The notes under the pieces: generated by a model | Database searches by the model: none | Told to the model about the DNA's origin: nothing | What the model saw: the letters and a program-made list of their open reading frames with translations, nothing else | Made by a program: the position numbers and the translations under genes | Shown: positions 9,137 to 18,590 of the stretch, in pieces | Layout of the letters: every line of letters begins with the position of its first letter | Numbering within the stretch: the first letter of the stretch is position 1 | From: Candidatus Zixiibacteriota bacterium | GTDB taxonomy: Bacteria; Zixibacteria; MSB-5A5; GN15; FEB-12 | Direction of reading: 5' to 3' | Length of the DNA: 64,000 nucleotides | Assembly (NCBI GenBank): GCA_034003725.1 | Contig: JAVEYB010000001.1 | Span: forward strand, 154,466 to 218,465

Positions 9137-9173
9137 TAATAGAAAACCCGGTCGCGGAGTGGCGACCGGGTTT
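9137..9173 (-). terminator. Rho-independent terminator after the porin gene
   Basis: 12-bp stem aaacccggtcgc / gcgaccgggttt, followed on the minus strand by TTTTCTATT. Confidence 0.55.
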
Positions 9174-9200
9174 GGCGTCGGTTCTGCCGACGTGCGAAAC

Positions 9201-10394
9201 TTAGAAGTTCAACTGGAAGGACGTCTGCGCGCGCATGGTCTTGGCCTGCTCGCCGTCGAGATAGTCCGTCTGCCACTGGCTCAGTTCGAAGCCGACCGCA
9301 ACGGGATCAACCAGCTTGTAGGTGATGTTACCGTACACGCACTGGTTGTAGACGCGGTCGCCGGTATTGAGATCTTCGTCTTCCGGATCATCCATGCCGT
9401 AACCGGCGCTGAACTTCACTCTCGGAGAGACCTGCGCCCAGACCGAACCCCAGGCGCCAAACGACGCGACGCCGTCAACTTTGCTGTTGTTGGCGATGCC
9501 GGCGAAGTAGCTACCGCCGTTGGAGCCGGAGTAGACTTCGCCGCTGACACCGAAGGCCTTGGAGAAGTCGATCTGCAGGTGACCCGAGGCAATCCAGCTC
9601 TCGTAGTCTTCGTAGTTGCCCAGGTTGGTTTCGGCTTTCAGCTTGCCCCAGAGACCGGACACGCCCAGCTGCAGCGCGGCGCCCGATGCAAACGAGTGTT
9701 TGACATCAAGCAGACCCTGCACCGAGGGGATACCGGCGTCGGTGCCGTCGTCGGCGCCGTCAGCGGTTTCGCCAAGAGCGAGCGTGAAAGTTGGAGTCAG
9801 GTCGTTGCCGATCGTCCGGAAGGCGCCTCCTGCCATGGTGACATTGGTCTCCCCGGCCTTGAAGGTCTGCCACAGACTGACCTGGGCGCGACGGTAGCCG
9901 ATATTACCCACACCCCAGAGAACCGAGTAGTTGAGGGTGGATGGATTCAGCGGCGAGATCAGATCGGTGCTCTGTCCGGCCAGCAGCTTCGTGCCGCCTT
10001 TCTGCACCGTGAAGTACGCGTGCCTCAGCTGCAACATCGGTTTGTTCTCAGCGATGGTCGCGCCGGTGACTCCCGCATACAGGTCAAATTCAACTTTGCC
10101 GTTGATCTTGACGTCTTCGTATCCCTTGCCCGCAAGGTTCAGTCCGAACCGCGACTGGTTGGCGGTCATGTTGAACTGATCGTCGTCGTCCTCATAGGAT
10201 TGCGGTTTAACCCACATGGCGAAATTGCCGTGGCTGGTCAAATTCTGGTCGTAGGCGCCATCCAGTTTGAAATAACCGTACAGGTTATATTCAAACGACT
10301 TTGTGTTGTCGGCGAGGGTCGATGTGCCTGCAAGCAGCACGCACAGGATCGCTCCAAGCGCAACAGCCACCACGCTTCGTGTCTTGTCTGTCAT
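9201..10394 (-). CDS. Outer-membrane beta-barrel porin-like protein
   Basis: Signal peptide MTDKTRSVVAVALGAILCVLLAGTSTLA. Alternating amphipathic beta-strand pattern rich in Y/G/N. C-terminal ...TSFQLNF with terminal Phe. GGGAGG Shine-Dalgarno. Confidence 0.7.
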   Translation of the reverse strand: MTDKTRSVVAVALGAILCVLLAGTSTLADNTKSFEYNLYGYFKLDGAYDQNLTSHGNFAMWVKPQSYEDDDDQFNMTANQSRFGLNLAGKGYEDVKINGKVEFDLYAGVTGATIAENKPMLQLRHAYFTVQKGGTKLLAGQSTDLISPLNPSTLNYSVLWGVGNIGYRRAQVSLWQTFKAGETNVTMAGGAFRTIGNDLTPTFTLALGETADGADDGTDAGIPSVQGLLDVKHSFASGAALQLGVSGLWGKLKAETNLGNYEDYESWIASGHLQIDFSKAFGVSGEVYSGSNGGSYFAGIANNSKVDGVASFGAWGSVWAQVSPRVKFSAGYGMDDPEDEDLNTGDRVYNQCVYGNITYKLVDPVAVGFELSQWQTDYLDGEQAKTMRAQTSFQLNF

Positions 10395-10668
10395 TCTGTG
10401 TACCTCCCAATGGGTTCTTTTGTCGATGATCGGGCGTTTGCATTGGTATCGGGAGGTTATGGCGGAGCGTTAATGTGGCCGTGACTCGGGGGAACCGGGA
10501 TTGAGCGCCTCGACACCGTACTCCCTTGTCCCACACGCGATTACATCCTGCGTGCGGGTAGGAATAGAACTACCCGCTGCCAAATCTGTGCAATCGCCGC
10601 ACAGGGTCGCGCGGTTCCGATACTGCCGGCGCATCCTCCATCAGGCGTATAGTCGACCTCTCCGTCCG

Positions 10669-11685
10669 TTATCGTCCGGGTGCCACGATAGCGGTATCGA
10701 TTCCCACCAGTTGCCCTTCGGGCCAGACCCCGTATAACTCCACAATCCAGGTTCCGGGATAGACGTCATAGAGGATCGAGCGCAGGTTGTAGAGGCAATA
10801 GCAATCACACATGCCGAGCGAGTCGCCTTCAAAGGCACGGATTACGTTTTCATCGAACTCGAATGTCGTGAAAAATCCAGGGCAGCAGTTCATCCATGCA
10901 CCCATGTGGTGGATGTAGAGATCGTTACCGACGACGTCTACATGCATTGACTCTTCCTGACCGATCCACACCGTATCGATGCCAACCGTATGGCCGTCGC
11001 CGTGAACAAGTTCGACGATATACATGGTCGGCTCCTGGATCTCTATCAGGTAGATGACCGCTTCCAGGTTGAAATAACACATGCAGTAGCAGGGATTGTT
11101 CGTCGTGTCTGCTTCCTGCACGGTGACGTAGTAACCGCCGGGGATGTTCTCGATCTGTGCGGTGACCGCGTACATCATACAGCAGTTGTAGTAGGCGTTG
11201 AAGTGGTGCACGTGAAGATCATCGCCGACGATCTCGGCATACATGTACTCGGTCGAGTCTTCTTCACCAAGTTCCGGAAAAGCGATGCATTCGCCCTGCG
11301 TGACTGACAGCGTGGACATCGAACCGGCAACGCCCGGAACCTTGTCAGTCTGCAAGCACTTACCGTCAGTCGACTCGCGGATGATACCCGGGCAATCGGG
11401 CGCCGGTCCGCCCAGAAACGCGAGATTAACAAGCCTGATAAGATCGGACATGTCAAGCAGCCCATCGGCGTTGCAGTCGGCTGTGTAGGGACAATTCGGC
11501 CCGCTGCCGCCAAGGAAGAGGAAGTTGACCAGATGGATGATATCGCTGAGGTCAGTGGCGGTGCCGTCACCGTTGATGTCGCCACAGAGCGGCTCCGAGA
11601 CAGCGCTCGCGGATACGGCAAAGAAGATGGCGCAGAGACAGGCACACGACACCGCAAGTTTGCTGCGGATAAATGCGCGTGACAT
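10669..11685 (-). CDS. Secreted protein with an N-terminal dockerin-like EF-hand pair and a duplicated Cys/His-rich module
   Basis: Signal peptide. Dockerin-like repeats GDINGDGTATDLSDIIHLVNFLFLGG and CNADGLLDMSDLIRLVNLAFLGG. Two copies of a module L-x-[VI]-HH...NCC...C-x-C-x-C-[FL]-[FY]-NL...IVEL. Confidence 0.7.
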   Translation of the reverse strand: MSRAFIRSKLAVSCACLCAIFFAVSASAVSEPLCGDINGDGTATDLSDIIHLVNFLFLGGSGPNCPYTADCNADGLLDMSDLIRLVNLAFLGGPAPDCPGIIRESTDGKCLQTDKVPGVAGSMSTLSVTQGECIAFPELGEEDSTEYMYAEIVGDDLHVHHFNAYYNCCMMYAVTAQIENIPGGYYVTVQEADTTNNPCYCMCYFNLEAVIYLIEIQEPTMYIVELVHGDGHTVGIDTVWIGQEESMHVDVVGNDLYIHHMGAWMNCCPGFFTTFEFDENVIRAFEGDSLGMCDCYCLYNLRSILYDVYPGTWIVELYGVWPEGQLVGIDTAIVAPGR

Positions 11686-11841
11686 GATTCACCCCGTTTA
11701 TGACGAGAATCTCTTTCGGCGGCCCGACGCTCGTTGGCCGCTGTATGGCTCTGTTGTAAGCCAAGTGAAGTCGAAAGTAATATACCGTCCTGTCCATGTT
11801 ATGCAACCGAATTGGCGGGGAGATCGCGGAGGTAATCTACC

Positions 11842-13602
11842 TCAGTTCTTAAGCTGGTGCGCGACCAGTTCGCGGTACAGGGCGGAACGCTCCATCAACA
11901 CGTCGTGACGACCCTCATCGACAATTCGTCCGCGATCGAGCGCTACGATTCGGTCGACGTGCTTGATCGTAGAGAGGCGATGGGCAATGATAATTGCAGT
12001 TTTGTCAACCAGGACTTGTTCGAGGGCCTGTTGAATCAGGTACTCCGAGTTGGCATCCAGCGCCGAGGTAGCTTCATCGAGTATCACCACGGCCGGGTTT
12101 TTGAGTATGACGCGGGCCAGACACAGTCGTTGTTTTTCGCCTCCGGAGATTGTTACGCCACGCTCGCCGACAATATGTTGGTATTTATCGGGCAAGCTGT
12201 CGATGAACCCGCCGATGTTGGCGATCCGCGCCGCGGCATGTACGTCGGCCTCGGTCGCTGTCGGCACACCGAACGCTATGTTGTCATGGATTGTGGCGCG
12301 AAAGAGCAGCGGTTCCTGATCAACGATGGATATGGCGCTGCGAAGACTGGTGAGCGAGAGGTTGCGAAGGTCGACGCCGTCAAGCGTGACCGTCCCGTCG
12401 TCCGGATCGAAAAACCGCATAATGAGATTGATGATTGTAGTTTTTCCGGAGCCCGACGGTCCGACGATGGCAACCTTCTCCCGCGCCGCCACTCGCAGAT
12501 TGATCCCTTCGAGTCGAAAGCCGTTACTGCCCTCGTAGGCGAAACGCACATGTCGCAACTCGACCTCGCCTCGAGGCTGCGACAGCACGACCGGGTTCGG
12601 CGGCTCGACAACGGTCGCGGGGATATCGAGGTACTCGAAGATGCGGTCGACCGACGCCATCGCGGACTTGACCTCGATATGCAGCGATGCCAGCCCTTCG
12701 ACCGGACTGTACAAATAGGTCAACAGCATATAGAAGGCGATCAGAGCGCCGAGCTGCATTTGTCCCTGTGCGATCAAATACGTTCCCCAGGCGAGTACGA
12801 CAATCGGTCCCAGCATGGAAATGAACTGCACGACATTGACGGAGAGCGAGGTATTGACGGATATCTGGACGTAGAGCCGGGTGATACGGTCGACGATCGT
12901 GCGGAGGCGGCCGCCCTCGCGGTTTTCCTGTCCGAACGCCTTGACCGTCTTTATGCCGGTAAAAGACTCCTGTATTCGCCCGGACAGCGAAGCGATGGCT
13001 TCCTGCAACCACCGGCTGATCCTGTTCAGGCGGCGGCCGTAAAACGAGGTAATCACCACCGTCAGCGGCACGGGAATGATCGCAATAACCGTCAGGTACC
13101 AGTTGACGTTCAGCAGGTAGATCAGAATCGCCACCAGCAGCAGAATGTTGGTGAAGAACATCAGAAGCGTCGAGGTCAGCAGGCTCTGCACGCGGCTGAC
13201 GTCGGAGAGAATCCGCGACATGATCTCCCCCACCTGATTGTTCTGATGGAACTGCAGCGAGAGCGACTGAAGGTGTGCGAAGAGTGCGGTTCGCATGTCC
13301 GCGATGATGTGCGCGCCGATATAACCGGCGAGATAATCACGGACCCAGGAGAACAATACATTGGCCAGATAGACACCGACCAGAAACAGCCCGAACATGA
13401 CGATCGGTGTGATATCGGGGCTGGCGGAGTCTCCGGCAAGCAGCGTCGGAATCAGATCATCGATAAGATACCGGACGGCGCCGGGAAGGACGAGCGCGAG
13501 CGCCGCGATGATCGTCATCACGAACAGCGTCAGCAACTCCAGACCCCAGTAGGGGCGGAGGTAACACCACAGCCTTTGGACTTTGCTCTTTTTCGCCGTC
13601 AT
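11842..13602 (-). CDS. ABC exporter, fused permease/ATPase (MsbA-like half transporter, no C39 peptidase domain)
   Basis: Six-TM N-terminal domain. Walker A GPSGSGKTT, signature LSGGEKQR, Walker B VVILDEATSALD, H-loop IIIAHRL. It lies directly downstream of the rSAM genes. Confidence 0.9.
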   Translation of the reverse strand: MTAKKSKVQRLWCYLRPYWGLELLTLFVMTIIAALALVLPGAVRYLIDDLIPTLLAGDSASPDITPIVMFGLFLVGVYLANVLFSWVRDYLAGYIGAHIIADMRTALFAHLQSLSLQFHQNNQVGEIMSRILSDVSRVQSLLTSTLLMFFTNILLLVAILIYLLNVNWYLTVIAIIPVPLTVVITSFYGRRLNRISRWLQEAIASLSGRIQESFTGIKTVKAFGQENREGGRLRTIVDRITRLYVQISVNTSLSVNVVQFISMLGPIVVLAWGTYLIAQGQMQLGALIAFYMLLTYLYSPVEGLASLHIEVKSAMASVDRIFEYLDIPATVVEPPNPVVLSQPRGEVELRHVRFAYEGSNGFRLEGINLRVAAREKVAIVGPSGSGKTTIINLIMRFFDPDDGTVTLDGVDLRNLSLTSLRSAISIVDQEPLLFRATIHDNIAFGVPTATEADVHAAARIANIGGFIDSLPDKYQHIVGERGVTISGGEKQRLCLARVILKNPAVVILDEATSALDANSEYLIQQALEQVLVDKTAIIIAHRLSTIKHVDRIVALDRGRIVDEGRHDVLMERSALYRELVAHQLKN

Positions 13603-13728
13603 AGTCGTAACCGGTAGTCGGTCACTCCCTCGCTAGATTTCAGCGCCGTATAATACGCACGCCGGGCGTCGATAGCAACGCCCGGCGCACATCAAAAACA
13701 CTCGACATCAGCGGCCGATGGCCGTATC

Positions 13729-14847
13729 TCACTGAGCCGGCATCTCCTCGCCGATCTGCCGATAAACCGCGGTCAGCAGGTTGGTAATCAGCTCATTGTC
13801 CTGGCAATGCAGCCCCTGCCCGTGCTCAATCCGGTATATACAGTAAGGGTTGTCGCCCCGCGACCCGGATGCGGAAACTGCCGTCGTCGCACAGCCGGCC
13901 CGGCACATCGGCAGATACTTGCACTGCTTGCAGAAACCGCCGGCGGACTCTCGCTTGAATTTGCGGTTGTACGCGAAGGCGTCGGGGTCGTTCCAGATCT
14001 CGGTAAGGGAACGCGTGCGGATATTGCCCTCGACGAACTGCTCGGGCATCGACAGGCATCCCTTGATATCGCCGTTGGACTCGATCCCGAGTCCCCGCGT
14101 TCCGGCAAAACATCCCCAGTACGGGTGGCCGTCAGTCAACATCGTTCCCTTACAGCCGTAGTAACCGATATTCTCGCCGACATCGATATCCAGCCGCTTG
14201 TCCTGTTTCAGTTCGAGGATCTTGTCAACGAAACGCGGGAAGTTCTCGATCGACATGACGAGATTGCCGTGTTCCCTCATGCGGCCGGTGGCCGTGGTCA
14301 TCTGGATGCGCCACTGCGGCACACCGCTGTCGATAAGGATATCGCGGATCGTCTCCATCTCGTCGAGGTTGATGTTGGAGATCTGGCTCAGGGCGCAGAA
14401 TTTTTTCAACCGGGGGTTGGCGGCCATCAGATGGAACGCGTTGATCACCCGGTCGTAACTGTCCTCGCGCTGCCGGATGAAGTTGTGGGTCTTTTTGACG
14501 CCGTCGAAACTGACGCCGACATTGCGAAGGCCGACATCGACGAAGGTATCGACAATCTCCGGCGTGACCGCCATACCGTTGGTGATCAGGTACGGTTTCG
14601 CGCCGTTGTCGTTGATTCGTTTAGCCAGCAGGGGCCAATCAGTGCGAAGCAGCGGTTCGCCGCCGGAGAGGGTGATGTCCACCGCCCCGAGCGCGCATAA
14701 CTCGTCGATCAGGGCCAGGGCTTCGTCGGTCGTCAGTTCGTCGGGACGTTTCTTCCCGGCGGCCGTGCCGCAGTGGAGGCAACGCATATTACAGGCAAAC
14801 GTGATCTCCCAGACGACGGCTTGCGGATAAAACTGAAACTCGCTCAT
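13729..14847 (-). CDS. Radical SAM/SPASM-domain enzyme (putative peptide maturase B)
   Basis: CNMRCLHC (CxxxCxxC) cluster motif near the N-terminus. C-terminal SPASM cysteines GC...C...GC and CKQCKYLPMCRAGC (CX2CX5CX3C). ATG 14847 overlaps the upstream stop as ATGA. GGAGGAG Shine-Dalgarno. Confidence 0.85.
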   Translation of the reverse strand: MSEFQFYPQAVVWEITFACNMRCLHCGTAAGKKRPDELTTDEALALIDELCALGAVDITLSGGEPLLRTDWPLLAKRINDNGAKPYLITNGMAVTPEIVDTFVDVGLRNVGVSFDGVKKTHNFIRQREDSYDRVINAFHLMAANPRLKKFCALSQISNINLDEMETIRDILIDSGVPQWRIQMTTATGRMREHGNLVMSIENFPRFVDKILELKQDKRLDIDVGENIGYYGCKGTMLTDGHPYWGCFAGTRGLGIESNGDIKGCLSMPEQFVEGNIRTRSLTEIWNDPDAFAYNRKFKRESAGGFCKQCKYLPMCRAGCATTAVSASGSRGDNPYCIYRIEHGQGLHCQDNELITNLLTAVYRQIGEEMPAQ

Positions 14848-16190
14848 GACTTCTCCTCCACAGCGGCTTGCATCCGCTGCTGTCGTTCGCGTGCGATTAT
14901 TTCGAGCATCGGTTGAAGGTTGTGCTTCCAGCTGTCGCACAGCTGGTCGCCGGAGGCGACGCCTTCGGCGCGGCGGGCGGGACATCCGCCCATGCAGATG
15001 GGCAGTATCGTGCAGTCGCGGCACTTCTCGTCCTCGAATGGATCGAAGGCGAAGAGGCGCTGGAAATTTTCATGATGGAAGTCGATAGGCTCTTTGATGT
15101 TCCCGGTCGCCCTGGACAGGTCGCCGACATAATTGAAGCATCGGTACAGGTAGCCCTCGTGGTCGATCAGAAACGAGTTGACCTGCTGCGACATGCAGAC
15201 GGTCGCTGACGGCGACGGCAGCGACTCGATCCGAAATCCGTTATCGAGCAGAATTCGGTAAAACGCCGCCTCTATCGCGGCGAAATCCCGGTTCTCGTAG
15301 CACTGGTCTGCGATATTGGCGCATGCCGTGGTGGCTGACTCGATCTTGCCGAAATTGACCGCCACCCGCTCTTGCAGCCCGGCTCGCGCAAGCTCGTCGA
15401 GCAACTGCTGCACCATATCGGCGGTGAACGTGCGGTCGACATTAACGCGGACGCTGATCGACATCAGCCCGCTGGCATACGTGATATTCTCGATTATCCG
15501 ATCGAAGCTTTCCTTGCCGTTCTTCAGCGGCCGCTTGCGGTTGTGGATATGCGACGGTCCGTCGAGCGTGACCTGCACCTGCCGAACGTGCAGCTCGGTG
15601 AGTCGATCGACAGTCTCGCGCGTAAGCAGATAGCCGTTGCTGATCATCGATGCGTCGTACGGAATGCCGTGTGACGTGCCGACCTCAAGGAACGCGGCGG
15701 TCAGCCGCTCGATAATATCCATGGCCAGCAAGGGTTCGCCGCCATACCAGCAGACGTCGAGATGCTTGAGCTGCGCAGCCTGACGGTTCACGAAGGCAAT
15801 CAGGCTGTCGATCACCTCGGTCGACATCCGGCCTCGCTTGTTGCCCTCGAAACAGTACCGGCACGCCATGTTACAGGCCATCGTGGGGGCGATGACGAGG
15901 CCGAGCGTGCTGGTTTCAAACCGCGTCCGGCGGTGGAGGAATTTGTAGGAACGGAGTTCGTCGCGCGCGTCGTCGTATAAAAACCGGCCGTAAATCAGCT
16001 GCTGCAGCAACTGCTGCTCGGCCTCGGTAAAGGATGGCGACTCGCCGTTGCCCAGTTTCGCGGCGAGCGCGCAGTAGGCAGCGTAGTTTTCATCGGTCAT
16101 GAGTGCCACCGCACCGCTGCATGCGTTGTACGCTATGTGGTACCCGTTTGGCCCGGACTGAAAGTGATTATACCGCGATACCTTAAACAT
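14844..16190 (-). CDS. Radical SAM/SPASM-domain enzyme (putative peptide maturase A, with an N-terminal extension of about 100 aa that could be a peptide-recognition element)
   Basis: CNMACRYC rSAM motif at about residue 100. SPASM motif CRDCTILPICMGGC plus upstream CMSQQ...YRC. N-terminus KVSRYNHF...YNACSGAVALMTDENY resembles peptide-modifying anSME-like maturases. Start is ATG 16190, or alternatively TTG 16199. Confidence 0.85.
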   Translation of the reverse strand: MFKVSRYNHFQSGPNGYHIAYNACSGAVALMTDENYAAYCALAAKLGNGESPSFTEAEQQLLQQLIYGRFLYDDARDELRSYKFLHRRTRFETSTLGLVIAPTMACNMACRYCFEGNKRGRMSTEVIDSLIAFVNRQAAQLKHLDVCWYGGEPLLAMDIIERLTAAFLEVGTSHGIPYDASMISNGYLLTRETVDRLTELHVRQVQVTLDGPSHIHNRKRPLKNGKESFDRIIENITYASGLMSISVRVNVDRTFTADMVQQLLDELARAGLQERVAVNFGKIESATTACANIADQCYENRDFAAIEAAFYRILLDNGFRIESLPSPSATVCMSQQVNSFLIDHEGYLYRCFNYVGDLSRATGNIKEPIDFHHENFQRLFAFDPFEDEKCRDCTILPICMGGCPARRAEGVASGDQLCDSWKHNLQPMLEIIARERQQRMQAAVEEKS

Positions 16191-16235
16191 GAGTTTCAAC
16201 CAATCAGCTTTCGTCCCTATTCACGTCGTTGACCA

Positions 16236-16265
16236 GGTGCGGGAAAGGTCGCCCCTTCCCGCACC
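16236..16265 (-). promoter_or_regulatory. GC-rich hairpin in the 273-nt spacer between the precursor genes and maturase A (possible attenuator or processing site)
   Basis: 10-bp stem ggtgcgggaa / ttcccgcacc with a loop of about 10 nt. No U tract follows, so this is not a canonical terminator. Confidence 0.35.
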
Positions 16266-16463
16266 GTCGTTTCTCCCGATCGGCACGGCGTGCGGCCGAA
16301 CCGAATACAACCCTCCGCAAATCGGATAATTTGCAGGCACCGATCGCGCCCAGCTGCGCGAGTGATTGCGGTGCAGTTGCCCTTGAATCGTGTGTCTCAA
16401 CCACGGTTCAGACCGACGGTGTCCGAATCGGGCATACAGCCTCGCAAGGCTGTGCAGCGTGCA

Positions 16464-16580
16464 TTAAATCGGAATCGGTGGTACGCCATACAGCGGGTAC
16501 ACGACACCTTTGCACCTGGTCTTGCAATAAATTCTGCAGACCTGCGTCGTCACATCGCTTGGATCGATGAGATAAATCAC
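16464..16580 (-). CDS. RiPP precursor peptide 1 (38 aa): MIYLIDPSDVTTQVCRIYCKTRCKGVVYPLYGVPPIPI
   Basis: GTG start 10 nt after AAAGGAGGTGA. TAA stop. CxxxCxxxC core. Paralogous to the peptide at 16695-16802, with mostly synonymous differences. Too short (under 60 aa) for the supplied ORF track. Confidence 0.7.
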   Translation of the reverse strand: MIYLIDPSDVTTQVCRIYCKTRCKGVVYPLYGVPPIPI

Positions 16581-16694
16581 TCTTGTTTCACCTCCTTTCA
16601 GTGGGTTCAGGTTTCACTCTGCACTGACTGTTCGTGCGATACGGTGATAACGACATTCCATAAGCAATGCCGATCACCTAACGCGGGGTATCGC

Positions 16695-16802
16695 CTAAAT
16701 CGGAACCCCGTACAAAGGATACACGACACCCTTGCACTTCTTGCTGCAATAAAGAATGCAGACCTGGCTGGTCACATCCTTCGGATCGATTAAGTAGATC
16801 AC
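16695..16802 (-). CDS. RiPP precursor peptide 2 (35 aa): MIYLIDPKDVTSQVCILYCSKKCKGVVYPLYGVPI
   Basis: GTG start 9 nt after AGGGAGGTGA. TAG stop. Same CxxxCxxxC-KGVVYPLYGVP architecture. Against peptide 1 there are 13 synonymous and 7 replacement codon differences. Confidence 0.7.
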   Translation of the reverse strand: MIYLIDPKDVTSQVCILYCSKKCKGVVYPLYGVPI

Positions 16803-17215
16803 CCGCAGTCACCTCCCTTCAGTCGGAGTAGCAAAGTGTTTGAGGTACGTCGGCACACATCCGCACGGCGGCGCCGCACATATGCGGCCGGGTTAAGACG
16901 TGTAAATGCGTTTAAAACGTGGTGAATAAATGACTGGACCGTCGATGCCGATTCACCTCCACAGCGGTTAGTCTATCTGAAGGCATATCACTGCGATTGC
17001 GCACGACGTGCACAGCCGCGTTCGGCAATTCCTGGGCGTCGCCATGTTGCGACGACGCCGTCAAAGCTGCTGCTGATAAAATGCGGGTCCCCGGATTGAC
17101 CCCACACCCTTACAACTCGAAAAGTCGTTCCACAACTTCGACCGAGACCATCGCTTGTGCGCGATTTCACACATCTTTATCCAAAAATCGCGTTAGCACT
17201 CTACGATGTGGAAAC

Positions 17216-17244
17216 AAAATAATTTTCGTAGAGTATCTTGTCAA
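17216..17244 (-). promoter_or_regulatory. Candidate sigma-70-type promoter facing the RiPP locus
   Basis: The minus strand reads TTGACA-N17-TATTTT inside a local AT-rich island. It is overlapped by an 8-bp inverted repeat CTCTACGA...TCGTAGAG (17199-17233). It lies about 410 nt upstream of the first precursor gene. Confidence 0.3.
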
Positions 17245-17320
17245 GTATTTTCTGGCGGCGAGTGATCACGGAAGAATCGCACACGCCGCCGCGCAACCGC
17301 GCCGGCTGTGCGGCGAACAG

Positions 17321-17800
17321 TCAGCGTCGACGCCGGTCGCGACGGCCTGATGCGGTGGTGTCTTCCGGGGTGTGAACAACGCTGACATTCGACAACGATG
17401 ACCAGTTGCCCGATTCGTCGACAGCCTTGATTCCGAAGTAGTAGGTCGTGTCCGGCCATAAGGGCAGAACCCTCGTCACGGATACTTTCGAACCCGAGGG
17501 CGACGGTGTGGGAATATTGGAAACCGGTGCGGCCCTGTCCCAGGAGGCGCGGAGTACAGCAGAATCTAACGCGTAGCGGATCTCGTATCGAGCAGCGGTC
17601 CCCACCTCGCCATCGTCGCCGACCGCCGTCCACGACAGTGTGACCCGGACGCCGTTCTGCCGTTCGGGGATATGTTCGGTCGCCTGCGAGCTGTCTGATC
17701 CGGAACCGCAGGCTACGAAAAGCGACATTGTCAAAGCGACAGCCCCTACTGAGAGAGCGCGCGTCACGAATGCGAGGTAATGTGCGTGGCGACGATGCAT
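17321..17800 (-). CDS. Lipoprotein with a fibronectin type III-like domain
   Basis: Lipobox LFVAC-GSG after a hydrophobic signal. FN3-like pattern VTLSWTAVGDDG..ARYEIRYA...YYFGIKAVDESGNWS. Confidence 0.65.
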   Translation of the reverse strand: MHRRHAHYLAFVTRALSVGAVALTMSLFVACGSGSDSSQATEHIPERQNGVRVTLSWTAVGDDGEVGTAARYEIRYALDSAVLRASWDRAAPVSNIPTPSPSGSKVSVTRVLPLWPDTTYYFGIKAVDESGNWSSLSNVSVVHTPEDTTASGRRDRRRR

Positions 17801-17927
17801 GCCGGTAGGTAACAGATTCTCGGTCGCGAAGAAAGAGTAAAAATTCGGAAGCCGAAATCAACGGGCCACTCGCTGTTCAGCGGGTGGCCCGTATGTGGGA
17901 TGCCGTTGACTCTGCGACGGATCACTT

Positions 17928-18590
17928 TCAACAGCCGGGCAGGCATGCCGCCGGAGCGGACCCGCCGAGGAACAGGAAATTGACCAGGTAGATCAGATCG
18001 GACAAGTCAATGTTACAGCCCGCGTCGCCGTTGGTGTTGGCCGATGCCTGACAGACTGGGGACGGACCACCCAGGAAAAGGAAGTTGACCAGATAGATCA
18101 AGTCGGACAAATCGACGTTCCCGCCCGCGTCATCGTTTACGTTCCCCGTATTTCCGGTGCAGCAACCGGACGATCCGCCGGCAAAATCCTGCCAGTATCC
18201 CTGATTGAGCGTATAACTGGCTGACGATGCGACGCCGACCGCTGTCTGGCCGATCGTACCGTTCATCTGGAAGCTGGCCGACGAACCCCAGCCGCCGCCT
18301 CCGCCGATCACCCACCAGTTGATCTGCTCGCCTGCCATCGGCGATTTGACTTGTTCCGTAACGACCGGCGATGTCCCGGCGGGCGAATCCGGGCGGGGTT
18401 CCGGTGACACGACGGCCGACTGTTGTTCGACCGAACCGGGCTGCGGCGCGGCTTGCTGCTGCGCCGGCGGTGCGGGCTTGCGTTTCGATTCGACAGTTCG
18501 CTCGTCAAGCGTACGATCTTTCGCGAATGCGCCGCCGACCGTCAAAGCGGTGATCGCCGCATACATCAGAAGCCGCGCTAGCGTTCTCAT
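17928..18590 (-). CDS. Secreted protein with a C-terminal dockerin-like repeat pair
   Basis: Signal peptide MRTLARLLMYAAITALTVGGAFA. Pro/Gln-rich linker. Repeats NDDAGGNVDLSDLIYLVNFLFLGG and NGDAGCNIDLSDLIYLVNFLFLGG. Confidence 0.7.
   Translation of the reverse strand: MRTLARLLMYAAITALTVGGAFAKDRTLDERTVESKRKPAPPAQQQAAPQPGSVEQQSAVVSPEPRPDSPAGTSPVVTEQVKSPMAGEQINWWVIGGGGGWGSSASFQMNGTIGQTAVGVASSASYTLNQGYWQDFAGGSSGCCTGNTGNVNDDAGGNVDLSDLIYLVNFLFLGGPSPVCQASANTNGDAGCNIDLSDLIYLVNFLFLGGSAPAACLPGC

What the first reader, a model, noticed from the sequence alone, without database searches (positions are those of the whole stretch)
11842..17244. Complete two-peptide / two-rSAM / ABC-exporter locus: thuricin-CD-like architecture in a Gram-negative-type, T9SS-bearing lineage
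Minus-strand order is candidate promoter (17244-17216), peptide 2, peptide 1, a 273-nt structured spacer, rSAM/SPASM A (CNMACRYC; CRDCTILPICMGGC), rSAM/SPASM B (CNMRCLHC; CKQCKYLPMCRAGC; coupled by an ATGA overlap at 14844-14847), then the ABC exporter. From established knowledge, thuricin CD is a two-peptide sactibiotic. Both of its peptides carry Cys at core positions 5, 9 and 13 (CxxxCxxxC), thioether-linked to alpha-carbons nearer the C-terminus. Its locus has two rSAM genes (trnC, trnD) and ABC transporter genes. The present locus copies that logic: two peptides, identical Cys spacing, a 12-15 residue acceptor tail, two SPASM maturases and an exporter. It differs in three ways. The apparent leader is very short. 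There is no C39 peptidase domain or other protease. The host appears diderm (porin, T9SS CTDs). Alternatively, the aromatic YPLYG tail could be a substrate for rSAM cyclophane formation, with each enzyme installing a different crosslink type. Either way this looks like an uncharacterised RiPP family.
Basis: partly seen in the sequence, partly recalled or inferred. Interest (0 to 1): 0.85.

Follow-up and report, generated by a model that had tools for sequence, protein, structure and literature searches.

The report
Zixibacterial two-radical-SAM peptide gene cluster
This is a real, conserved and so far unnamed gene cluster of uncultured Zixibacteria that makes small modified peptides; one enzyme probably bridges their cysteines and the other probably cuts a tyrosine out of the backbone to leave a protease-blocking ketoamide, so it is not a thuricin-CD-like two-peptide antibiotic.

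Summary
The locus is not a chance arrangement. In 51 of 52 related loci, nearly all from Zixibacteria-type MAGs, 1-5 similar small ORFs lie upstream of the same A-B pair.

The family comparison changes the interpretation. Precursor number varies from 1 to 5. CxxxCxxxC spacing is not conserved. The invariant features are an N-terminal M-I-Y-L-I-D-P, a first Cys near position 15, and P-[L/M/C]-Y-G-[V/I] near the C-terminus.

rSAM A has a CteB-like build (RRE + rSAM + SPASM) and is closest to Cys-rich-peptide maturase models. rSAM B's closest named models are the GDL-motif maturase TIGR03913 and TIGR04103, which I take to be the PlpX tyramine-splicease family. The invariant X-Y-G with its flanks resembles experimentally used splice sites (PIRPGYGLPI; AAMYGVV).

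Best model: a hybrid RiPP carrying Cys cross-links (probably thioethers) plus an α-keto-β-amino acid, which is then exported. The thuricin-CD analogy is only superficially supported. Neither enzyme reaches any NCBIfam cut-off and the precursors match no model, so I rate it a new variant of a known kind. No chemistry was tested.

The parts
17216..17244 (-). Sigma-70-type promoter-like site, TTGACA-17 nt-TATTTT, about 414 nt upstream of the first precursor gene
   Evidence: Found by the scan, though the count in the region is not above chance. TTGACA and a TAT(TTT/ACT/AGT) -10 hexamer are conserved in register in L002, L007 and L054.
16803..17215 (-). Long 5' leader with conserved blocks of unknown role (for example CCTTCAGATAG..AACCGC..TGGAGGTGAATCGGCAT around 16940-16985, and GTAAGGGTGTGGGG around 17100-17115)
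   Evidence: The blocks are conserved in the alignments with L001/L002 and with L002/L007/L054. There is no Rfam match.
16695..16802 (-). Precursor peptide 2, MIYLIDPKDVTSQVCILYCSKKCKGVVYPLYGVPI (35 aa, GTG start, GGAGGTG Shine-Dalgarno sequence)
   Evidence: Its ortholog in L002 differs at 13 synonymous and 1 non-synonymous codons. It is a member of an 84-sequence family.
16464..16580 (-). Precursor peptide 1, MIYLIDPSDVTTQVCRIYCKTRCKGVVYPLYGVPPIPI (38 aa, GTG start, GGAGGTG Shine-Dalgarno sequence)
16191..16463 (-). Structured spacer between the precursors and the enzyme genes. It holds a hairpin just after the stop codon, a three-way junction (conserved GCACCG..CGCGCAGCTGGGCGCG..CGGTGC and CTGCAAAT..ATTTGCGGAGGG), and a strong 3' hairpin. 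It probably sets the precursor:enzyme expression ratio (inferred).
   Evidence: Fold z = -2.6. The hairpins are kept in L002/L007/L054 with different sequences, and the CTGCAAAT/ATTTGCGGAGGG hairpin is invariant. There is no Rfam family.
14844..16190 (-). rSAM/SPASM maturase A (448 aa): an N-terminal RRE-like domain of about 95 aa, the CNMACRYC radical SAM core and a full 7-Cys SPASM domain. Predicted to cross-link Cys, probably by forming thioethers.
   Evidence: Best NCBIfam hits are TIGR04334 (343 bits, cut-off 600), TIGR04463 (315 of 525), CefB and PapB. The AF2 model has pLDDT 87.6, with N-terminal strands followed by three helices. The best structural match is CteB, 5WHY/5WGG, over the full length. 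Orthologs are found in about 53 GTDB genomes.
13729..14847 (-). rSAM/SPASM maturase B (372 aa, no RRE), translationally coupled to A by an ATGA overlap. Predicted tyramine splicease acting on the X-Y-G motif.
   Evidence: Best NCBIfam hits are TIGR03913 (245 bits, cut-off 592) and TIGR04103 (224 of 725). It is 34% identical to a Nostoc TIGR04103 enzyme that sits next to a ...IALYGLPPELF precursor. It is 37% identical to an Agathobacter rSAM that sits next to a ...PVMYGTGVRM peptide. It directly follows A in every locus whose sequence extends far enough.
11842..13602 (-). ABC half-transporter (586 aa, TMD+NBD, MsbA-like, no C39 peptidase domain). Predicted exporter and/or immunity protein.
   Evidence: Orthologs (53-88% identity) lie downstream of the A-B pair in 34 loci.

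Best explanation
The locus is an operon for a ribosomally made, post-translationally modified peptide of a family that is widespread in Zixibacteria.

Shown by the data:
- One to five short precursors sit upstream of two coupled rSAM/SPASM enzymes and an ABC exporter.
- The precursors share an invariant N-terminal M-I-Y-L-I-D-P, a first Cys near position 15, further Cys at variable spacing, and an invariant P-[L/M/C]-Y-G-[V/I] a few residues from the C-terminus.

Inferred mechanism:
1. The RRE-like N-terminal domain of rSAM A binds the short MIYLIDP leader.
2. rSAM A is built like CteB and is closest to the maturases of Cys-rich peptides. It cross-links the Cys residues to other residues, probably as sactionine- or ranthionine-type thioethers.
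3. rSAM B is a homolog of the PlpX tyramine splicease. It excises a tyramine equivalent from the X-Y-G site. [quoted passage not shown]
4. rSAM B has no RRE, there is no PlpY, and the leader is too short to supply the activating helix known from binary spliceases. B therefore probably works in a complex with A, which fits the ATGA translational coupling.
5. The ABC transporter exports the product.
6. By analogy with characterised spliceotides, the product would be a macrocyclic ketoamide protease inhibitor.
7. About a third of related loci add a B12-dependent rSAM, presumably a C-methyltransferase.
For: - Conservation: 51 of 52 loci with at least 600 nt upstream of an rSAM A ortholog carry 1-5 precursors on the same strand. 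A-to-B adjacency holds in every locus with enough sequence, and ABC orthologs occur in 34 loci.
- Invariant columns across 53 diverse precursors are M1, P7, Y and G. YG is present in 80 of 84 unique precursors, and X is L (58), M (13) or C (9).
- rSAM B: the top NCBIfam hits are TIGR03913 and TIGR04103. PlpX belongs to IPR026482 (PMC11002830), which to my memory is the InterPro entry for TIGR04103.
- rSAM B is 34% identical over its full length to a Nostoc enzyme that NCBI annotates as 'nif11-class peptide radical SAM maturase 3'. That enzyme's Nif11 precursor ends GG|RGSIALYGLPPELF, and a small 71-aa ORF in the position of PlpY follows it.
- rSAM B is 37% identical to an Agathobacter rSAM preceded by an unannotated peptide ending PVMYGTGVRM.
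- Published splice sites resemble the window's ...YPLYGVPI: the PlpA3 core AVAAMYGVVFPWD and the minimal tag PIRPGYGLPI (PMC10533398 supplement). LYG and MYG were spliced by RasX and RcsX (PMC11626197).
- rSAM A: the best HMMs are Cys-rich-peptide maturases (Clo7bot, TIGR04463, CefB, PapB). The AF2 model has an RRE-like N-terminus, and its best structural match is the thioether-forming CteB over the full length.
- Both enzymes have complete 7-Cys SPASM motifs (sequence).
Against: - No chemistry was measured.
- rSAM B scores far below the TIGR04103 cut-off (224 of 725). It scores equally well against the uncharacterised GDL-motif family TIGR03913, so it belongs to the wider clade, not to the PlpX equivalog.
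- Known spliceases need PlpY or a helical leader as an activator (PMC11414181). Neither is present here.
- Two precursors have Y-S in place of Y-G.
- The Cys chemistry of rSAM A rests only on homology at 16-20% identity to solved enzymes.
- I could not read Scott et al. 2022, so I cannot say whether their splicease census already includes this clade.
Confidence: 0.55

Rival explanations
1. One reading: a thuricin-CD-like two-peptide sactibiotic. Both rSAM enzymes install Cys-to-alpha-carbon thioethers from the CxxxCxxxC Cys residues to acceptors in the C-terminal tail, and the two mature peptides act synergistically.
For: The window has two precursors with Cys at i, i+4 and i+8 and tails of 12-15 residues. 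It also has two rSAM/SPASM genes and an ABC transporter. rSAM A is CteB-like. CxxxC repeats are common in the family.
Against: Copy number is 1 in 24 loci, 2 in 16, 3 in 8, 4 in one and 5 in two, yet the A-B pair is always present. Cys number (1-5) and spacing vary, and some precursors have a single Cys. rSAM B lacks an RRE, and its nearest named families are the GDL-motif family TIGR03913 and TIGR04103 (which I take to be the PlpX family), not sactisynthases. The invariant tail residues are P-x-Y-G, not a pattern of acceptor residues.
Confidence: 0.08
2. rSAM B performs a different Tyr-directed radical reaction at the conserved Y-G. Candidates are a C-C or C-O/C-S cross-link to the Tyr ring or beta-carbon (cyclophane- or PqqE-type), or a Cys-Tyr link. 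The Gly would be conserved only for steric access. rSAM A still handles the Cys residues and leader binding.
For: rSAM B also matches the MftC, PqqE, AhbD and NirJ models, although less well. It is below the cut-off of the PlpX equivalog. No PlpY or helical leader is present. A second Tyr or other aromatic residue often lies 3 residues upstream (VVYPLYG).
Against: The X-Y-G motif and its flanks (P-X-Y-G-[VL]-P) resemble validated splice tags closely. The nearest relatives outside the family that have recognisable substrates carry MYG or LYG peptides. No conserved partner residue for a Tyr cross-link exists, because only M1, P7, Y and G are invariant.
Confidence: 0.25
3. The product is not a secreted bioactive peptide but a peptide-derived redox cofactor or an intracellular or periplasmic signalling molecule, as in PQQ or mycofactocin. 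The ABC protein would then serve in trafficking or an unrelated function.
For: rSAM B is related to MftC and PqqE (MftC hits). The system is very widespread within one phylum. No protease or dedicated immunity gene is present.
Against: The cores are hypervariable and occur in multiple divergent copies per locus, which is typical of bioactive RiPPs and not of cofactors. An ABC exporter is conserved in 34 loci. No cofactor-dependent dehydrogenases and no MftB/PqqD/PqqB-type genes are conserved in the neighbourhood.
Confidence: 0.05

Closest known systems
Spliceotides (PlpA/PlpX/PlpY of Pleurocapsa; binary RhaX/RasX-type systems): tyramine-excising rSAM/SPASM spliceases
   Same: There is a PlpX-like rSAM/SPASM enzyme: 34% identity to a TIGR04103-annotated Nostoc enzyme, with TIGR04103 as the second-best HMM. 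The precursors have an invariant X-Y-G with hydrophobic X, and flanks resembling known splice tags, P-X-Y-G-[V/L]-P.
   Different: The precursors are 28-48 aa with a leader of about 14 residues, not the roughly 70-aa Nif11/NHLP or helical leaders. There is no PlpY. A second, RRE-bearing CteB-like rSAM is always coupled to the splicease-like gene. The cores are Cys-rich. The enzyme is below the TIGR04103 cut-off (224 of 725).
Thuricin CD (TrnA/TrnB precursors, TrnC/TrnD rSAM enzymes, ABC transporter): a two-peptide sactibiotic (from established knowledge)
   Same: In this window there are two similar precursors with CxxxCxxxC, two rSAM/SPASM genes and an ABC transporter.
   Different: Across the family the precursor number is 1-5 and the Cys spacing varies. 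The second enzyme is PlpX/GDL-like and lacks an RRE. The conserved tail motif is X-Y-G. The host is a Zixibacteria-type lineage rather than Bacillus.
Ranthipeptide/SCIFF maturases CteB and PapB
   Same: rSAM A shares the RRE + rSAM + SPASM build. CteB is its best structural match over the full length. The PapB and SCIFF-maturase HMMs match it (143 and 99 bits). The substrates are Cys-rich.
   Different: The scores are far below the family cut-offs (340 and 425). The precursors lack the SCIFF or CxxxD/E patterns. The cross-link type here is unknown.
NCBIfam TIGR04334 (Clo7bot peptide maturase) and TIGR04463 (rSAM/SPASM RiPP maturase): bioinformatically defined, uncharacterised Cys-rich peptide systems
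   Same: These are the best-scoring models for rSAM A and align over the full length (343 and 315 bits). Tandem short Cys-containing precursors are a shared theme, as the model names indicate.
   Different: Both scores are below cut-off (600 and 525). The precursors match no NCBIfam or Pfam model. I found no literature on either family.
GDL-motif peptide (DUF1843) / TIGR03913 rSAM system
   Same: TIGR03913 is the best-scoring model for rSAM B (245 bits), and rSAM B is 35-38% identical to annotated members. Several DUF1843 peptides also carry a P-Y-G motif.
   Different: The score is below cut-off (592). The precursors are unrelated, being 55-70-aa helical DUF1843 proteins with the Y-G near the N-terminus. 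There is no partner rSAM A.

Membership tests
Spliceotides (tyramine-spliced RiPPs) | An rSAM/SPASM splicease of the PlpX family (IPR026482; TIGR04103 by my recollection of the mapping) | tested here: inconclusive
   TIGR04103 scores 224 bits (E = 2e-66, full length) against a cut-off of 725. TIGR03913 scores slightly higher. rSAM B is 34% identical to an NCBI-annotated TIGR04103 enzyme. The 10 representative relatives I scanned all have TIGR03913, TIGR04103 or TIGR04133 as best hit, and none reaches a cut-off.
Spliceotides (tyramine-spliced RiPPs) | An X-Y-G motif in the precursor core | tested here: met
   YG is present in 80 of 84 unique precursors. Y and G are invariant in the 53-sequence alignment. 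X is L, M or C. The flanks resemble PIRPGYGLPI and IALYGLPP.
Spliceotides (tyramine-spliced RiPPs) | An activator: a PlpY protein (type I) or a helical leader segment (binary types) | tested here: not met
   No small ORF follows rSAM B; the gap to the ABC gene is 126 nt. The leader is about 14 residues. PMC11414181 describes this requirement.
Spliceotides (tyramine-spliced RiPPs) | [quoted passage not shown] | not testable with these tools
   This needs heterologous expression and MS/MS.
Two-peptide sactibiotics (thuricin CD type) | Exactly two distinct precursors conserved as a pair | tested here: not met
   Copies per locus: 1 in 24 loci, 2 in 16, 3 in 8, 4 in one, 5 in two.
Two-peptide sactibiotics (thuricin CD type) | A conserved CxxxCxxxC donor pattern with matching acceptors | tested here: not met
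   Precursors have 1-5 Cys at variable spacing. Only the first and last Cys columns are nearly invariant.
Two-peptide sactibiotics (thuricin CD type) | Cys-S to alpha-carbon thioethers | not testable with these tools
   This needs MS/MS or NMR.
Two-peptide sactibiotics (thuricin CD type) | Both rSAM enzymes of the sactisynthase type | tested here: not met
   A is CteB-like. B's best hits are TIGR03913 and TIGR04103, and sactisynthase models (StsB 100 bits, SkfB 75 bits) rank far lower.
Ranthipeptides (SCIFF/PapB) | The maturase reaches the TIGR03974 or NF047865 cut-off | tested here: not met
   99 bits against 425, and 143 bits against 340.
NCBIfam TIGR04334 / TIGR04463 Cys-rich peptide maturases | A score above the curated cut-off | tested here: not met
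   343 bits against 600, and 315 bits against 525.
GDL-motif peptide system (TIGR03913) | The maturase is above cut-off and adjacent DUF1843 precursors are present | tested here: not met
   245 bits against 592. The precursors have no Pfam or NCBIfam hit and are unlike the DUF1843 peptides.
Mycofactocin / PQQ cofactor pathways | MftC or PqqE above cut-off, with MftB/PqqD and a C-terminal GVY or ExxxY precursor | tested here: not met
   MftC scores 131 bits against 265, and PqqE 80 against 381. No such accessory genes are conserved. The Tyr is not C-terminal.

The most novel reading that the evidence does not exclude
This is a new RiPP class in which a CteB-like, RRE-bearing rSAM enzyme is an obligatory partner of a tyramine splicease. 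It would bind an unusually short leader of about 14 residues (MIYLIDP) and take over the activator role of PlpY or the leader helix, perhaps through its long C-terminal helix (residues 414-447 of the model). The two enzymes together would build thioether-bridged alpha-ketoamide macrocycles, which would be protease inhibitors made phylum-wide by uncultured Zixibacteria.
Probability: 0.3. Interest if true: 0.72.

Novelty: new variant of a known kind. Interest (0 to 1): 0.6.

Why it matters
If the model holds, this family combines two radical-SAM chemistries, Cys cross-linking and backbone tyramine excision, on precursors of only 28-48 residues. It would show a third way of recruiting or activating a splicease, through a partner rSAM enzyme with an RRE rather than through PlpY or a long helical leader. 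That would be useful for engineering ketoamide-containing macrocycles from very short genetically encoded tags.

The data also give a concrete, testable natural-product family for an uncultured phylum: 84 unique precursors in the loci studied here, 151 precursor clusters and more than 1000 rSAM A relatives in public data, all annotated as hypothetical or generic. It is a ready set of natural sequence variants around a putative protease-inhibitor warhead.

Tried and rejected
A concatenated query found a single relative. The 53-member profile then found 151 clusters.
- An Rfam scan of 11000-18500 gave only a sub-threshold chance hit inside the rSAM B gene (Rhino_CRE, E = 0.21) and nothing for the spacer or leader.
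- Scott et al. 2022 (Chem), the splicease census, is not held. The supplements of two splicease papers are not held. I therefore had no authentic PlpX, RhaX or RasX sequence for comparison. As a stand-in I used a Nostoc plasmid enzyme that NCBI annotates with TIGR04103, together with its Nif11 precursor.
- Literature searches for TIGR04103, TIGR03913, 'GDL motif', Clo7bot, TIGR04334, TIGR04463, 'Cys-every-fifth' and geopeptide returned nothing relevant. The Mitchell-lab rSAM compendium does not mention spliceases.
- A fuzzy regex search for the promoter timed out. I replaced it with an alignment.
- I considered that the conserved block in the spacer might encode a small protein (ORFs at 16221-16400 and 16204-16404). 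I rejected this because the differences from L002 are not three-periodic, and the region folds into hairpins kept by compensatory changes.
- I considered an anSME-like formylglycine role for rSAM A, because some precursors carry C-S-P-R-F. I rejected it because the motif is out of register with C-x-P-x-R and occurs in only one subgroup.
- I looked for T9SS C-terminal domains in the adjacent genes and found none.
- I did not build a phylogeny.

Full report
**Observation**

On the minus strand the window carries, in order:
- a sigma-70-like site, TTGACA-17-TATTTT, at 17244-17216;
- two small ORFs with GTG starts behind GGAGGTG: pep2 at 16695-16802 (35 aa) and pep1 at 16464-16580 (38 aa);
- a 273-nt spacer;
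- an rSAM/SPASM gene A at 14844-16190 (448 aa from the ATG that public gene calls also use);
- an rSAM/SPASM gene B at 13729-14847, whose ATG overlaps A's TGA;
- an ABC half-transporter at 11842-13602 with no peptidase domain.

The two peptides are 80% identical, with Cys at positions 15, 19 and 23 and a shared ...KGVVYPLYGVP tail. Both enzymes have the full 7-Cys SPASM pattern. The spacer folds better than shuffled sequence (z = -2.6). The one thing I could not verify is T9SS C-terminal domains in the neighbouring genes, which gave only weak dockerin and fn3 hits.

**Is it more than chance?**

Yes, clearly.
- rSAM A has more than 1000 relatives at E <= 1e-20. The best 120 clusters are 53-100% identical, and those with names come from Zixibacteria or FCB-group MAGs under generic labels.
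- In the species-representative genomes, 53 loci encode orthologs at 47-77% identity. Most are labelled Zixibacteria or GN15, or are uncultured bins filed as Ignavibacteria(les).
- In every locus whose sequence extends far enough, an rSAM B ortholog (56-88% identity) follows A directly. An ortholog of the ABC gene follows in 34 loci, either at once or after an extra B12-binding rSAM gene that is present in 18 loci. No protease is conserved.
- Upstream of A, on the same strand, 51 of 52 loci with at least 600 nt of sequence carry small ORFs of the same family, giving 95 genes and 84 unique sequences.
- Against the three closest loci, the window's precursors differ mostly at synonymous codons (13:1, 18:9, 13:6, 11:4, 15:8). 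They are genes under purifying selection.
- A profile of the family finds 151 clusters in the large protein collection. All are 'hypothetical' with no Pfam domain.

**What the family comparison shows**

The copy number per locus is 1 (24 loci), 2 (16), 3 (8), 4 (one) or 5 (two). Having two peptides is therefore an accident of this genome.

The precursors are 28-48 aa long, apart from one 20-residue frameshifted copy in L043. Across 53 diverse members only M1, P7 and a Tyr-Gly pair near the C-terminus are invariant. L4, the first Cys, the last Cys and the Pro two residues before the Tyr are nearly invariant. The first Cys is at position 15 in 55 of 84 sequences and at 14-16 in 76 of 84. The total Cys count is 1-5 with variable spacing. 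CxxxC repeats are frequent but not universal.

YG is present in 80 of 84 sequences. The four exceptions are the frameshifted copy in L043, two with Y-S, and one divergent copy. The residue before YG is Leu (58), Met (13) or Cys (9), and the residue after it is Val or Ile in 75. The family signature is thus M-I-Y-L-I-D-P ... C ... P-[LMC]-Y-G-[VI], not CxxxCxxxC.

**The enzymes**

rSAM A. Its best NCBIfam models are maturases of Cys-rich peptides, all aligned over the full length and all below cut-off:
- TIGR04334 Clo7bot, 343 bits (cut-off 600);
- TIGR04463, 315 bits (cut-off 525);
- the geopeptide maturase, CefB and PapB.

An AlphaFold2 model built from 44 homologs (pLDDT 87.6) shows N-terminal strands (residues 2-32) followed by three helices (33-90), as in an RRE, then the rSAM barrel and the SPASM domain. 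Its best structural match is the thioether-forming CteB (5WHY/5WGG), aligned over about 455 columns. TigE, anSME and SuiB come next.

rSAM B. It has no N-terminal extension. Its best models are TIGR03913 (GDL-motif peptide maturase, 245 bits, cut-off 592) and TIGR04103 (nif11-class peptide maturase 3, 224 bits, cut-off 725). These are well ahead of NirJ2, AhbD, MftC and PqqE. The 10 representative relatives I scanned all have TIGR03913, TIGR04103 or TIGR04133 as best hit, and none reaches a cut-off.

PlpX, the founding tyramine splicease, belongs to IPR026482 (PMC11002830). That IPR026482 is InterPro's entry for TIGR04103 is my recollection, not a tool result.

**Link to splicing**

[quoted passage not shown] They have been reported in 189 genera, mostly as binary enzyme-precursor pairs (PMC10849128; PMC11414181). 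LYG and MYG sites have been validated, and the products inhibit proteases (PMC11626197).

I had no authentic PlpX sequence, so I used annotated plasmid records.
- A Nostoc sp. C057 enzyme annotated as TIGR04103 is 34% identical to rSAM B over the full length. It sits between a Nif11 precursor ending GG|RGSIALYGLPPELF and a 71-aa ORF in the position of PlpY.
- An Agathobacter rectalis rSAM that is 37% identical to rSAM B is preceded by an unannotated peptide, MFNLEELSLEFVKISELKTSKNLFGPVMYGTGVRM, and followed by an MFS transporter.
- The published PlpA3 core is AVAAMYGVVFPWD..., and the minimal splice tag is PIRPGYGLPI (PMC10533398 supplement).

The window's ...VVYPLYGVPI and the family consensus P-[LMC]-Y-G-[VI]-P resemble these sites closely. 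This is the main reason I read the invariant Y-G as a splice site and rSAM B as the splicease.

**Proposed mechanism (inferred)**

1. A's RRE binds the MIYLIDP leader.
2. A cross-links the Cys residues.
3. B splices X-Y-G to a ketoamide.
4. The ABC protein exports the product.

Known spliceases need PlpY or a leader helix as an activator. This system has neither, and A and B are translationally coupled. I therefore suspect that B works in a complex with A.

What is shown is the gene order, the conservation, the motifs, the homologies and the fold. What is inferred is every chemical step, the A-B complex and the product's activity.

**Regulatory parts**

The promoter-like site is conserved in register in L002, L007 and L054. 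TTGACA is invariant and the -10 hexamer is TATTTT, TATACT or TATAGT. By count alone it is not above chance in the window.

The spacer contains three modules: a hairpin just after the stop codon, a three-way junction, and a strong 3' hairpin. Their sequences differ between relatives while pairing is kept. The CTGCAAAT/ATTTGCGGAGGG hairpin is invariant in the four close relatives. With four sequences this is suggestive only. A role in setting the precursor:enzyme ratio is an inference.

**Comparison with known systems and novelty**

- The locus works most like a spliceotide pathway combined with a CteB/PapB-type thioether pathway.
- It is not a member of any curated family I could test, because every NCBIfam score is below cut-off and the precursors match nothing.
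- It fails the defining features of a thuricin-CD-type two-peptide sactibiotic.
- I found no paper describing it. However, I could not read the 2022 splicease census, which may list the clade.

I rate it a new variant of a known kind, with interest 0.6. It is real, widespread and testable, with a plausible hybrid chemistry and an unusual recognition logic. It still lies within the well-populated space of rSAM RiPPs, and no chemistry has been tested.

Noticed in passing
window 16803-17215 (minus strand); L002 4990-5392; L007 5990-6407: The roughly 400-nt 5' leader between the conserved promoter and the first precursor has conserved blocks. One is CCTTCAGATAG..AACCGC..TGGAGGTGAATCGGCAT, which looks like a third precursor-type ribosome-binding region without a canonical start codon. 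Another is GTAAGGGTGTGGGG. These could be a decayed third precursor gene or a regulatory RNA.
   Followed up: partly
L005 8456-9889; L047, L008, L011, L012, L022 and others (18 loci): About a third of related loci carry an extra B12-binding radical SAM gene (about 476 aa) between rSAM B and the ABC gene. The window and its close relatives lack it. I saw no obvious correlation with precursor subtype.
   Followed up: partly
L010 43-3333 and 10 other loci: A protein of about 1000 aa recurs in 11 related loci; in L010 it lies upstream of the precursors. It has not been scanned against any domain library. Its N-terminal sequence looks to me like a PAS-type sensor, so it may be a dedicated regulator. 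It is absent from the window.
   Followed up: no
L086 2802-3257; L089 2168-2881; L090 560-751: DUF1843 'GDL motif' peptides next to TIGR03913 rSAM enzymes carry a P-Y-G motif in several copies, mostly near the N-terminus (VRPYGPAM, VTPYGVAI, IQPYGAGI). Sibling copies have Y-A instead (LYAAG, MYAAS). This may mean that the uncharacterised system also acts on a Tyr-Gly site.
   Followed up: partly
L088 about 2860-2970 (Agathobacter rectalis NZ_CP143948.1): An unannotated 35-aa ORF, MFNLEELSLEFVKISELKTSKNLFGPVMYGTGVRM, lies directly upstream of an rSAM/SPASM gene (37% identical to rSAM B) and an MFS transporter. It looks like a binary spliceotide cluster in a human gut bacterium.
   Followed up: partly
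window 10669-11685 and 17928-18590 (minus strand): Neighbouring secreted proteins carry repeated D-x-N/D-G-D...DLSDLIYLVNFLFLGG segments with only a weak Dockerin_1 match. No T9SS C-terminal domain was detected in the genes flanking the locus.
   Followed up: partly
L009, L010, L011, L030, L035, L048 precursors: One precursor subgroup has C-S-P-[RK]-[FY]-x-P-[LM]-Y-G. This recalls the sulfatase C-x-P-x-R formylglycine motif but is out of register with it. Two other recurrent tail types are C-x-[IV]-K-P-[LCM]-Y-G and C-K-G-V-x-Y-P-[LM]-Y-G.
   Followed up: no
L043 6772-6925; L018 5712-6609; L026: Signs of turnover in the family. L043 has a frameshifted precursor. L018 has two identical precursor copies in a 676-nt direct duplication. 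L026, the second copy of the system in one Zixibacteria chromosome, has no recognisable precursor and only a partial ABC match.
   Followed up: no
window 11857-13617 (+), 13807-14700 (+), 9159-10484 (+): Long ORFs lie antisense to the ABC, rSAM B and putative porin genes. One is a 586-aa mirror image of the ABC gene. They are most likely artefacts of the roughly 59% G+C content, not genes.
   Followed up: no
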